Shown: one piece after another, positions 13,554-13,976 of the stretch
How the letters are laid out: every line of letters starts with the position of its first letter
Position numbering within the stretch: the stretch's first letter is position 1
Assembly: GCA_043821285.1 (NCBI GenBank)
Contig: JBDRCZ010000051.1
Coordinates: 2,199-66,198, forward strand
Direction of reading: 5' to 3'
Length of the DNA: 64,000 bases
Source: Candidatus Omnitrophota bacterium
GTDB taxonomy: Bacteria > Omnitrophota > Gorgyraeia > B26-G9 > JBDRCZ01
The notes under the pieces: model-generated
Database searches by the model: none
Seen by the model: only the letters and a program-made list of their open reading frames with translations
What the model was told of the DNA's origin: nothing
Translations under genes and position numbers: made by a program

Positions 13554-13976
13554 ATGGAGATTACCGAGGTGAGAGTGTTTTTGAAAACAAGTCCGGATAA
13601 AAAATTAAAGGCATATACCACAATAACATTAGATAATGCCTTTGTTGTTCGAGATATTAAGGTCATTGAAGGCAGTAAAGGATTATTTGTCGCGATGCCT
13701 TCAAGAAAGCTAAAAAATCAATGTGCAAAATGCGGATATAGAAATGTTGTTCGCAGCAAGTTTTGCAACCAATGCGGCTCAGCACAAGACACTTATTCGA
13801 GTAAGCCCGCAGTAACCCCGGAAGAACAGCGTCAGTCAGAACACCGCGATATTGCCCACCCAATTACGCCAGAATGCCGTGAATATATCCAGCGCAAAGT
13901 CTTAGAAGCTTATGATCTGGAAAAGAAAAAGGCCCCTGGGGTGACGGTTGTGTCTGAAGAAGAGGTAGAAGAATAA
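13554..13976 (+). CDS. spoVG: SpoVG-family protein with an inserted 4-Cys zinc ribbon
   Basis: MEITEVRV...[28 protein letters not shown] and RDIAHPIT match the SpoVG core. The insert reads [19 protein letters not shown]. An AGGAG RBS sits 8 nt before ATG 13554. The ORF track started at 13506. Confidence 0.85.
   Translation: [140 protein letters not shown]

What the first reader, a model, noticed from the sequence alone, without database searches (positions are those of the whole stretch)
13554..13976. SpoVG carrying an inserted four-cysteine zinc ribbon
The SpoVG core is clear on both sides ([27 protein letters not shown] ... RDIAHPIT). The short loop that in canonical SpoVG reads roughly KRTPDGEF is replaced by about 40 aa containing [19 protein letters not shown] (CxxC-x11-CxxC). 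SpoVG is a nucleic-acid-binding regulator. A zinc ribbon grafted into it would add a second nucleic-acid or protein-binding surface. I do not know this as a described variant.
Basis: partly seen in the sequence, partly recalled or inferred. Interest (0 to 1): 0.5.

Follow-up and report, generated by a model that had tools for sequence, protein, structure and literature searches.

The report
SpoVG with built-in zinc ribbon
This gene encodes the nucleic-acid-binding regulator SpoVG with a small four-cysteine zinc-ribbon module spliced into one loop. The variant is real and strongly conserved, but it is the standard SpoVG of two whole bacterial phyla and the insert was already noted in 2012, so this copy is one more member rather than a discovery.

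Summary
ORF 13554..13976 (+) encodes a 140-aa SpoVG (Pfam PF04026, E=1.7e-29). Its short loop after the basic doublet is replaced by a 39-aa insert. The insert has an 18-residue Cys4 ribbon (C57, C60, C71, C74), a variable linker of about 17 aa, and a conserved RQSEH return.

It is not an artefact or a one-off. 500 of 506 retrieved homologs carry the ribbon at the same position with the same C-x2-C-x10-C-x2-C spacing. So do 80 of 80 genome loci, which share the ispE-spoVG-tRNA-Gln-glmU-prs-rplY-pth neighbourhood.

Every named carrier is Omnitrophota (the window's phylum) or Planctomycetota, including cultured Tautonia species.

The insert is not undescribed. Gupta et al. 2012 reported a 32-36 aa SpoVG insert as a signature of Planctomycetes, without recognising a zinc ribbon. 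UniRef already labels one homolog "zinc-ribbon domain-containing".

What appears to be new is modest: the insert is a zinc ribbon, it also occurs in Omnitrophota, and it sits four residues after the basic doublet that is essential for DNA binding.

The most likely role is an extra basic nucleic-acid-binding knuckle at the rim of the SpoVG binding pocket. This is inferred and untested.

The parts
13540..13545 (+). Shine-Dalgarno sequence AAGGAG, 8 nt upstream of the ATG
   Evidence: Read directly from the sequence. All homologs start at MEITEV.
13554..13976 (+). spoVG coding sequence (140 aa plus stop), zinc-ribbon-bearing subfamily
13554..13709 (+). N-terminal SpoVG beta-sheet core (residues 1-52), ending in the basic doublet R51-K52 (nt 13704-13709)
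   Evidence: Aligns to residues 4-55 of 2i9z. The doublet corresponds to S. aureus K50-R51, which is essential for DNA binding (PMC3688583).
13719..13835 (+). 39-aa insert relative to canonical SpoVG (residues 56-94)
   Evidence: Alignment A1 against B. subtilis SpoVG. Insert length computed.
13722..13778 (+). Cys4 zinc-ribbon knuckles C57-x2-C60-x10-C71-x2-C74-G75. Cysteine codons are at 13722-24, 13731-33, 13764-66 and 13773-75.
   Evidence: Pfam Zn_Ribbon_1 E=2.7e-4 and DZR E=4.5e-4, both below their curated cut-offs. The cysteines are invariant, R67 and N72 are 100% conserved and N64 is 99% conserved in 120 homologs. pLDDT is about 85. Foldseek superposes this part on NZF/RanBP2-type fingers at 0.7-1.1 A over 25 residues, with non-significant E-values.
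13779..13829 (+). Variable, probably flexible linker (residues 76-92)
   Evidence: Mean column entropy is 2.5-2.7 bits, against 0.5-1.2 for the core and ribbon. pLDDT is about 55. By the definition, which runs on to the residue before DIAHP, this segment is 18-31 aa across homologs.
13830..13868 (+). Conserved return segment RQSEH plus SpoVG strand beta-5 and the DIAHPIT motif (residues 93-105)
   Evidence: The most conserved segment of the protein (majority frequency 0.94). A strand is predicted at 97-99.
13869..13931 (+). C-terminal SpoVG alpha-helix (residues 106-126). P106-Y111 corresponds to the S. aureus SDMRQE specificity stretch.
   Evidence: Helix 106-126 in the model. Alignment to 2i9z. 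Specificity stretch from PMC3688583.
13932..13973 (+). Short acidic, disordered tail (residues 127-140)
   Evidence: pLDDT below 50 for residues 129-140. The segment is variable.
12584..13438 (+). ispE (GHMP kinase), the conserved upstream neighbour
   Evidence: Pfam GHMP_kinases_N and _C. Found upstream of spoVG in 78/80 Omnitrophota genome loci and also in L081, a locus of the Tautonia/Isosphaeraceae type.
14147..14220 (+). tRNA-Gln (UUG), the conserved downstream neighbour
   Evidence: ARAGORN.
17264..20976 (+). glmU-prs-rplY(ctc)-pth, the classical spoVG downstream block
   Evidence: Pfam hits. The same gene order holds in most of the 80 loci.

Best explanation
Identity (high confidence). 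This is the single, orthologous spoVG of an Omnitrophota genome. It belongs to a SpoVG subfamily shared by Omnitrophota and Planctomycetota. In this subfamily the tight loop between the essential basic doublet (R51-K52) and strand beta-5 has been replaced by a Cys4 zinc ribbon, a flexible linker and a conserved RQSEH return.

Shown:
- The SpoVG core is intact around the insert.
- The ribbon is at a fixed position, 4 residues after the doublet, with fixed C-x2-C-x10-C-x2-C geometry.
- It is as conserved as the core and carries a net charge of about +3.
- The family-specific near-invariant residues are a basic residue at motif position 7 (R63), N64, R67, K69, an aromatic at position 14 (F70) and N72.

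Mechanism (inferred, about 0.5). The ribbon binds one Zn2+ and acts as an extra basic knuckle on the rim of the SpoVG nucleic-acid-binding pocket, which is formed by the basic doublet and the C-terminal helix. It would enlarge the contact surface for RNA or DNA, most likely single-stranded RNA, and so raise affinity or change specificity of this global post-transcriptional/transcriptional regulator. A SpoVG dimer would present two such knuckles.

The window protein is the minimal form of the subfamily, with a short acidic tail. Planctomycetota versions add long Arg/Gly-rich disordered tails.
For: Identity:
- Pfam SpoVG at 102 bits. PDB SpoVG aligns in two blocks flanking the insert.
- The ispE-spoVG-tRNA-Gln-glmU-prs-rplY-pth neighbourhood is conserved.
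- There is only one spoVG in the window.

The ribbon is real and under selection:
- Cysteines are invariant in 120/120 homologs.
- 500/506 homologs share the position and spacing. 80/80 genome loci carry it.
- Segment entropy of the ribbon is 0.76-1.17 bits, against 0.52-0.89 for the N-terminal core and 2.5-2.7 for the linker.
- Ribbon pLDDT is about 85 with the deeper alignment.
- Relatives pass the Pfam DZR and Zn_Ribbon_1 cut-offs.

Placement: the insert begins 4 residues after R51-K52. These are the equivalents of S. aureus K50-R51, whose alanine substitution impairs DNA binding to below EMSA detection. The insert ends before the helix that sets sequence specificity (PMC3688583).

Nucleic-acid character:
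- Ribbon net charge averages +2.8 to +3.7.
- The nearest solved-structure sequences are RNA-binding ribbons (eL40, the RBM10 zinc finger, Rpb12), and the first two share N-x-x-R.
- R67 and N72 align with ZRANB2 R81 and N86, which contact RNA bases.
- Planctomycetota homologs carry RG-rich tails typical of RNA-binding proteins.
- SpoVG itself binds DNA and RNA (PMC3688583, PMC4959528, PMC11086051).
Against: - No experiment exists on any member of this subfamily. Zinc binding and nucleic-acid binding by the ribbon are both untested.
- The window protein's ribbon scores below the Pfam cut-offs (21.1 vs 25; 20.7 vs 27.3).
- All sequence and fold matches of the isolated ribbon to RNA-binding fingers are statistically non-significant (E 0.05-4). 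Solved ribbon structures may also be over-represented by ribosomal and RNP proteins (my assumption).
- The Trp that is essential for RNA stacking in ZRANB2 (W79) is Val here. Only 2 of the 5 ZRANB2 RNA-contact positions are kept.
- Structurally similar fingers (NZF, RanBP2/Nup153) bind proteins, not RNA.
- I could not inspect model coordinates, so the ribbon's orientation relative to the binding pocket and the dimer interface is not established.
- 27 of 120 close Omnitrophota homologs have AK, SK or TK instead of a full basic doublet.
Confidence: 0.5

Rival explanations
1. The ribbon is a protein-protein docking module. It would tether SpoVG to a partner such as the ribosome, RNA polymerase, an RNase or a division protein, and would not itself touch nucleic acid.
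For: The best structural superpositions of the ribbon are NZF and RanBP2/Nup153 fingers, which bind ubiquitin or Ran (Trabid NZF1 at 0.7 A over 25 residues, Nup153 at 0.9 A over 25). Many homologs also end in conserved short C-terminal motifs (DIEL/DLEF in Omnitrophota; AGIL/GxGL in Planctomycetota). That suggests the subfamily engages protein partners.
Against: The ribbon is strongly basic and lies next to the residues needed for DNA binding. It lacks the Trp and the Thr-Phe signature of the protein-binding RanBP2/NZF types (the signature is from my own knowledge; sequence). No co-conserved partner gene is evident: all neighbours are housekeeping genes.
Confidence: 0.2
2. The Cys4 site is a structural staple or a redox/zinc-sensing switch. 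Metal binding would rigidify the loop. Oxidation or zinc loss would unfold it and switch SpoVG activity, without the ribbon surface contributing contacts.
For: Cys4 zinc sites act as redox switches in several bacterial regulators (general knowledge). The ribbon is tethered by only 4 residues on one side and by a flexible linker on the other. Folding or unfolding of the ribbon could therefore gate access to the pocket. [quoted passage not shown]
Against: Non-cysteine surface residues (R67, N72, K/R69 and a basic residue at motif position 7) are conserved about as strongly as the cysteines across two phyla. A pure staple or sensor would not require this. Carriers span lineages I take to be mostly anaerobic (Omnitrophota) and aerobic (cultured Planctomycetota) (general knowledge).
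Confidence: 0.15
3. The insert is an assembly or annotation artefact, or a decaying non-functional insertion.
For: None found. The only anomaly is one locus (L019) with a TAA in place of the Lys codon of the doublet.
Against: The insert is in frame and present in 80/80 independent genome assemblies, hundreds of metagenome proteins and cultured isolates (Tautonia spp.). Its conservation equals that of the core.
Confidence: 0.01

Closest known systems
Canonical SpoVG (PF04026; B. subtilis, S. aureus, L. monocytogenes and B. burgdorferi proteins; PDB 2i9z, 2i9x, 2ia9)
   Different: The 5-residue TPDGE turn is replaced by a 39-aa insert containing a Cys4 ribbon. The residue before R-D-I-A-H-P is His instead of Phe. 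The protein falls below the NCBIfam equivalog cut-off (99.8 vs 108).
Planctomycetes SpoVG 'conserved signature indel' (Gupta, Bhandari & Naushad 2012, Front Microbiol 3:327)
   Same: The insert is the same: same site and homologous sequence. It is 36 aa in cultured Tautonia, matching the published 32-36 aa, and 39 aa here.
   Different: The paper treats it only as a phylogenetic marker said to be exclusive to Planctomycetes and does not mention zinc or cysteines. Here it occurs in Omnitrophota, with a slightly longer linker and a short acidic tail instead of long RG-rich tails.
Bacterial generic zinc-ribbon domains (Pfam PF13240 Zn_Ribbon_1, PF12773 DZR)
   Same: It has two CxxC knuckles 10 residues apart, an Asn after the first knuckle, an aromatic before the third Cys and Gly after the fourth. 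Relatives pass the curated cut-offs.
   Different: The window copy is sub-threshold. These ribbons are usually terminal modules (my recollection), whereas this one is inserted inside another domain's loop. R67 and N72 are family-specific.
RanBP2-type ssRNA-binding zinc fingers (ZRANB2, RBM5/RBM10, FUS/EWS/TAF15) and the ribosomal protein eL40 ribbon
   Same: The C-x2-C-x3-N-x6-C-x2-C spacing is identical. Arg at N+3 and Asn after Cys3 match the ZRANB2 RNA-contact residues R81 and N86. eL40 and RBM10 are the best PDB sequence matches. The combination of a finger with RG-rich tails in Planctomycetota recalls FUS-family proteins (the comparison is from my own knowledge).
   Different: There is no Trp before Cys1 and no stacking Trp at N+1 (it is Val). 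R82 is replaced by Ser and N76 by Tyr. The Pfam RanBP score is 14 against a cut-off of 27. The matches are not statistically significant, so common ancestry is not shown.

Membership tests
SpoVG (Pfam PF04026) | Profile match above the curated cut-off | tested here: met
   102.2 bits against a cut-off of 29.6, spanning profile positions 1-81 of 82.
SpoVG (Pfam PF04026) | SpoVG fold: beta-sheet plus C-terminal helix | tested here: met
SpoVG (Pfam PF04026) | Conserved basic doublet after GLFVAMPS and the DIAHPI motif | tested here: met
   R51-K52 and D99-I104 are present. The role of the doublet is from PMC3688583.
SpoVG (Pfam PF04026) | NCBIfam equivalog NF009749 (septation regulator SpoVG) score at or above the cut-off | tested here: not met
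   99.8 bits against a cut-off of 108, with the match split in two by the insert. It fits NCBI's looser name 'SpoVG family protein'.
SpoVG (Pfam PF04026) | DNA/RNA binding and a regulatory role | not testable with these tools
   This needs EMSA or CLIP with the protein itself.
Planctomycetes-type insert-bearing SpoVG (Gupta 2012 CSI) | An insert of roughly 32-36 aa in the conserved region between the basic doublet and DIAHP | tested here: met
   The insert is 39 aa here, 36 aa in Tautonia and 33-46 aa across 503 homologs, always at the same site. The window protein is 44-49% identical to the Tautonia/Isosphaeraceae group over the full length. The paper's figure is not held, so the exact site in the paper is inferred.
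Planctomycetes-type insert-bearing SpoVG (Gupta 2012 CSI) | Restricted to the phylum Planctomycetes | tested here: not met
   The window protein is 100% identical to an NCBI Candidatus Omnitrophota MAG protein. All 80 best genome loci are from Omnitrophota-type genomes; 60 are labelled Omnitrophota, Omnitrophica or Candidatus Undivivens and 20 are labelled 'uncultured Planctomycetia/Planctomycetales'.
Zinc ribbon (Pfam PF13240 / PF12773; clan Zn_Beta_Ribbon) | Two CxxC knuckles with ribbon spacing | tested here: met
   C57-x2-C60-x10-C71-x2-C74, invariant in 120/120 homologs.
Zinc ribbon (Pfam PF13240 / PF12773; clan Zn_Beta_Ribbon) | Profile score above the curated cut-off | tested here: not met
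   For the window protein, 21.1 against 25 (PF13240) and 20.7 against 27.3 (PF12773). Homologs P0491 and P0235 do pass (31.8 and 29.2 for DZR; 26.4 for Zn_Ribbon_1 in P0491).
Zinc ribbon (Pfam PF13240 / PF12773; clan Zn_Beta_Ribbon) | Beta-hairpin knuckle fold | tested here: inconclusive
   The model shows short strands at 54-56 and 63-65 with pLDDT about 85. It superposes on NZF, RanBP2 and ArnA ribbons at 0.7-1.1 A over 25-26 residues, but with Foldseek E-values of 1-4.
Zinc ribbon (Pfam PF13240 / PF12773; clan Zn_Beta_Ribbon) | Binds one Zn2+ through four cysteines | not testable with these tools
   This needs a metal analysis of recombinant protein.
RanBP2-type ssRNA-binding zinc finger (ZRANB2 class; PF00641) | Consensus W-x-C-x2-4-C-x3-N-x6-C-x2-C (consensus recalled from memory) | tested here: not met
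   The spacing and the Asn are present. The Trp before Cys1 is absent (the sequence reads KNQC). The Pfam score is 14 against a cut-off of 27.
RanBP2-type ssRNA-binding zinc finger (ZRANB2 class; PF00641) | RNA-contact residues N76, W79, R81, R82 and N86 | tested here: not met
   The equivalents are Y62, V65, R67, S68 and N72, so 2 of 5 are kept and the essential stacking Trp is missing.

The most novel reading that the evidence does not exclude
The zinc-ribbon SpoVG of Omnitrophota and Planctomycetota may be a bacterial counterpart of eukaryotic 'zinc finger plus RGG' RNA-binding proteins. In this reading the inserted ribbon reads single-stranded RNA next to the SpoVG pocket. In Planctomycetota the long Arg/Gly/acidic tails and the conserved C-terminal peptide would drive multivalent RNP or condensate assembly, and the Omnitrophota protein in this window would be the minimal core of that system. 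As a corollary, the insert would be a rare genomic change marking common ancestry of Omnitrophota and Planctomycetota within the PVC superphylum.
Probability: 0.15. Interest if true: 0.6.

Novelty: new member of a known kind. Interest (0 to 1): 0.3.

Why it matters
SpoVG is a widespread but mechanistically poorly understood global regulator that binds DNA and RNA. A natural variant with an extra metal-binding knuckle welded next to its binding residues is a ready-made probe of where and how SpoVG grips nucleic acid.

The variant is retained across two phyla, including genomes of only about 1.4-1.6 Mb. Those figures are the 1.43-Mb chromosome behind L056 and the 1.57-Mb contig behind L018.

The finding also corrects the published claim that the insert is exclusive to Planctomycetes. 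It offers a shared derived character linking Omnitrophota to Planctomycetota.

For this particular window the result is mostly clarifying. The gene is the ordinary spoVG of its phylum.

Tried and rejected
- **Artefact or chance motif.** Rejected by conservation.
- **Membership in the ZRANB2-like RNA-binding RanBP2 fingers.** The spacing fits, but the defining Trp residues are absent and the Pfam score is sub-threshold. I keep it only as an analogy.
- **A significant structural or sequence relative for the isolated ribbon.** Only non-significant hits appeared: eL40 at E about 0.05, and NZF/RanBP2 at Foldseek E of 1-4.
- **AFDB50 fold search for the UniProt-wide distribution.** The library was unavailable.
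- **Promoter and terminator scan around the gene.** Nothing on the + strand and nothing above shuffled expectation.
- **Carriers in a third phylum.** All ten odd-looking cluster representatives that had names were Omnitrophota or Planctomycetota. The first cluster look-up gave no taxon names.
- **A second spoVG in the window.** None found.
- **Literature.** Searches for SpoVG with zinc ribbon, zinc finger, CXXC, Omnitrophota or planctomycete genera found no functional description.
- **Ribbon orientation.** I could not obtain model coordinates, so the orientation of the ribbon relative to the pocket and the dimer interface was not examined.

Full report

Yes. The ORF at 13554..13976 (+) encodes 140 aa, with an AAGGAG ribosome-binding site 8 nt upstream.

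Pfam SpoVG (PF04026) matches at 102.2 bits against a cut-off of 29.6, across residues 1-121. The three solved SpoVG proteins (2i9z, 2i9x, 2ia9) align as two blocks, 1-53 and 94/95-121 or beyond.

Against B. subtilis SpoVG, the canonical ...PSKR-TPDGEF-RDIAHPI... becomes ...[27 protein letters not shown](linker)[12 protein letters not shown].... The net insert is 39 aa, residues 56-94.

Weak Pfam hits fall on residues 52-78. They are Zn_Ribbon_1 (E=2.7e-4), DZR (E=4.5e-4) and RanBP (E=0.03), all below their curated cut-offs.

**2. Is it conserved?**

The closest database protein is 100% identical. It is an NCBI 'Candidatus Omnitrophota bacterium' MAG protein named 'septation protein SpoVG family protein'.

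- All 120 best homologs (61-79% identity) carry the motif. C57, C60, C71, C74, R67 and N72 are invariant among them.
- A scan of one genome per species found at least 571 relatives. The best 80 are all Omnitrophota-type loci, and 80/80 carry the ribbon.
- A profile search of 1.84 billion cluster representatives gave 7284 SpoVG-family hits, 437 of them at E<=1e-30. Of the best 150, 148 have the ribbon at the same position.
- Across 506 sequences from four searches, 500 show MPS-(doublet)-x4-C-x2-C-x10-C-x2-C.
- Measured by column entropy, the ribbon (0.76-1.17 bits) is about as conserved as the N-terminal SpoVG core (0.52-0.89). The linker that follows is not (2.5-2.7).

**3. Who has it?**

Searches seeded with longer representatives returned proteins named from Planctomycetota. 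These include Phycisphaerae, Isosphaeraceae and the cultured species Tautonia rosea, T. sociabilis and T. plasticadhaerens. UniRef calls the T. sociabilis protein 'Zinc-ribbon domain-containing protein'.

The divergent-looking representatives that carried names were again Omnitrophota or Planctomycetota. I found no named carrier outside these two phyla, but the survey is limited to what the tools list.

In T. plasticadhaerens the ribbon passes the Pfam cut-offs for DZR (31.8 against 27.3) and Zn_Ribbon_1 (26.4 against 25).

**4. Genomic context**

The gene sits in the classical spoVG neighbourhood: ispE - spoVG - tRNA-Gln - glmU - prs - rplY(ctc) - pth. The order is the same in most of the 80 Omnitrophota loci: ispE in 78, glmU in 65 and prs in 57, limited mainly by contig ends. 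ispE also precedes spoVG in L081, a locus of the Tautonia/Isosphaeraceae type.

The window holds only one spoVG. This is therefore the organism's ortholog, not an extra paralog.

**5. Structure**

With a 134-sequence, two-phylum alignment, AlphaFold2 gives a mean pLDDT of 80.8.

- Core strands are at 3-10, 18-26, 30-39 and 44-47. Strand beta-5 is at 97-99 and the helix at 106-126.
- The ribbon region (residues 51-80) has pLDDT 84-86 and short strands at 54-56 and 63-65.
- The linker (81-90) has pLDDT about 55, and the tail is below 50.

The E-values are not significant for so small a unit.

**6. How it most likely works**

Jutras et al. 2013 showed that the basic doublet after AMPS (S. aureus K50-R51; B. 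burgdorferi R53-R54) is essential for DNA binding. They also showed that a six-residue stretch of the C-terminal helix sets specificity. They modelled a pocket between the two (PMC3688583).

In the window protein the doublet is R51-K52 and the helix stretch is P106-Y111. The ribbon starts four residues after the doublet and returns just before beta-5, so it hangs on the rim of that pocket.

The ribbon is basic, with a mean net charge of +2.8 to +3.7. Its family-specific conserved residues are surface-type: a basic residue at motif position 7, N64, R67, K/R69 and N72.

- The best solved-structure sequence matches to the ribbon alone are eL40, the RBM10 zinc finger and Rpb12 (E 0.05-0.3, not significant). 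eL40 and RBM10 share N-x-x-R.
- Aligned with ZRANB2 finger 2, R67 and N72 fall on R81 and N86, which contact RNA bases. The essential stacking W79 is Val here, and N76 and R82 are not kept.

I therefore favour an accessory nucleic-acid-binding knuckle, probably for single-stranded RNA, that extends the SpoVG binding surface. My confidence in this mechanism is about 0.5. The identity and architecture are near-certain.

The rivals are a protein-docking finger (0.2) and a structural or redox zinc site (0.15). An artefact is excluded.

**7. Prior knowledge and novelty**

Gupta, Bhandari & Naushad (2012) listed 'a 36 aa insert in a conserved region' of SpoVG (32-36 aa in the figure legend). They reported it as present in all sequenced Planctomycetes and in no other organism, and used it as a phylum marker (PMC3444138). 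The paper contains no mention of zinc or cysteine.

I measure exactly 36 aa in Tautonia and 39 aa here, at one and the same site. It is the same insert.

Full-text searches for SpoVG with zinc ribbon, zinc finger, CXXC, Omnitrophota or planctomycete genera found no paper that interprets or tests it.

So the variant is known as an indel and is flagged automatically as a zinc-ribbon architecture in databases. The window gene is a new member of that known kind.

The modest additions are three:
- The insert is a Cys4 ribbon placed next to the DNA-binding doublet.
- It is not exclusive to Planctomycetes but is universal in the Omnitrophota loci retrieved.
- Planctomycetota versions carry long RG-rich tails.

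**8. Verdict**

Interest is 0.3.

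Noticed in passing
window 14250-17100: A low-GC island (34% against 39-42% in the flanks) lies between tRNA-Gln and glmU. It carries an N6/N4 DNA methylase (14713-15855) and a 384-aa ORF (15859-17013) with weak PD-(D/E)xK nuclease hits. It is probably an acquired type II restriction-modification unit. About 16 of 80 related loci also have 1-3 kb of extra DNA at this spot, and L048 has a related methylase.
   Followed up: partly
proteins P0131, P0187, P0210, P0235 (Planctomycetota-type homologs; taxon names come only from related hits): Zinc-ribbon SpoVG proteins of 260-471 aa carry long low-complexity tails rich in Arg, Gly, Glu, Asp and Pro. 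The tails contain RG/RGG repeats and a conserved EY(S/D)xLIADLR motif, and three of the four end in FGAGL/FGAGI-type motifs. They resemble eukaryotic RGG-type RNA-binding proteins.
   Followed up: partly
C-termini of homologs P0002-P0120; window 13932-13973: 64 of 120 Omnitrophota homologs end in an acidic-hydrophobic tip (DIEL, DLEF or DLEL). This looks like a short linear docking motif. The window protein lacks it and ends in EEEVEE.
   Followed up: no
L019 479-856: A TAA stop replaces the Lys codon of the essential basic doublet (PSR*IK) in an otherwise intact spoVG. It is either a pseudogene or a sequencing error.
   Followed up: partly
L012 and L074: Two different ispE-spoVG loci come from the same MAG (C4_metabat.bin.33). 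Because both have the same upstream gene, a mixed bin is more likely than true paralogs.
   Followed up: no
window 13533 vs 13554: The NCBI protein (P0001, 147 aa) starts 7 codons upstream of the start used by all homologs (MEITEV). The Shine-Dalgarno sequence favours 13554.
   Followed up: yes
proteins P0127 and P0258: The profile search also found a 388-aa protein made of four tandem SpoVG domains, and a tandem-duplicated SpoVG. Both lack the ribbon and are of unknown taxon.
   Followed up: no
loci L005, L007, L017, L022 and others: Twenty TPA-assembled MAGs labelled 'uncultured Planctomycetia' or 'Planctomycetales' carry Omnitrophota-type SpoVG (61-71% identity to the window) and Omnitrophota synteny. 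Their taxon labels may be placeholders.
   Followed up: no
window 11507-12325: A 272-aa Cys-rich ORF upstream of ispE has only a weak SPASM (iron-sulfur) hit (E=0.0076). It may be the C-terminal part of a radical-SAM maturase.
   Followed up: no
residue 108 (window 13875-13877): A fifth cysteine (C108) lies in the specificity stretch of the helix. It is at least 90% conserved in close Omnitrophota homologs and present in the Isosphaeraceae-type protein P0166 (SGCREK), but it is Phe in other homologs. It is therefore not an obligatory metal ligand.
   Followed up: no
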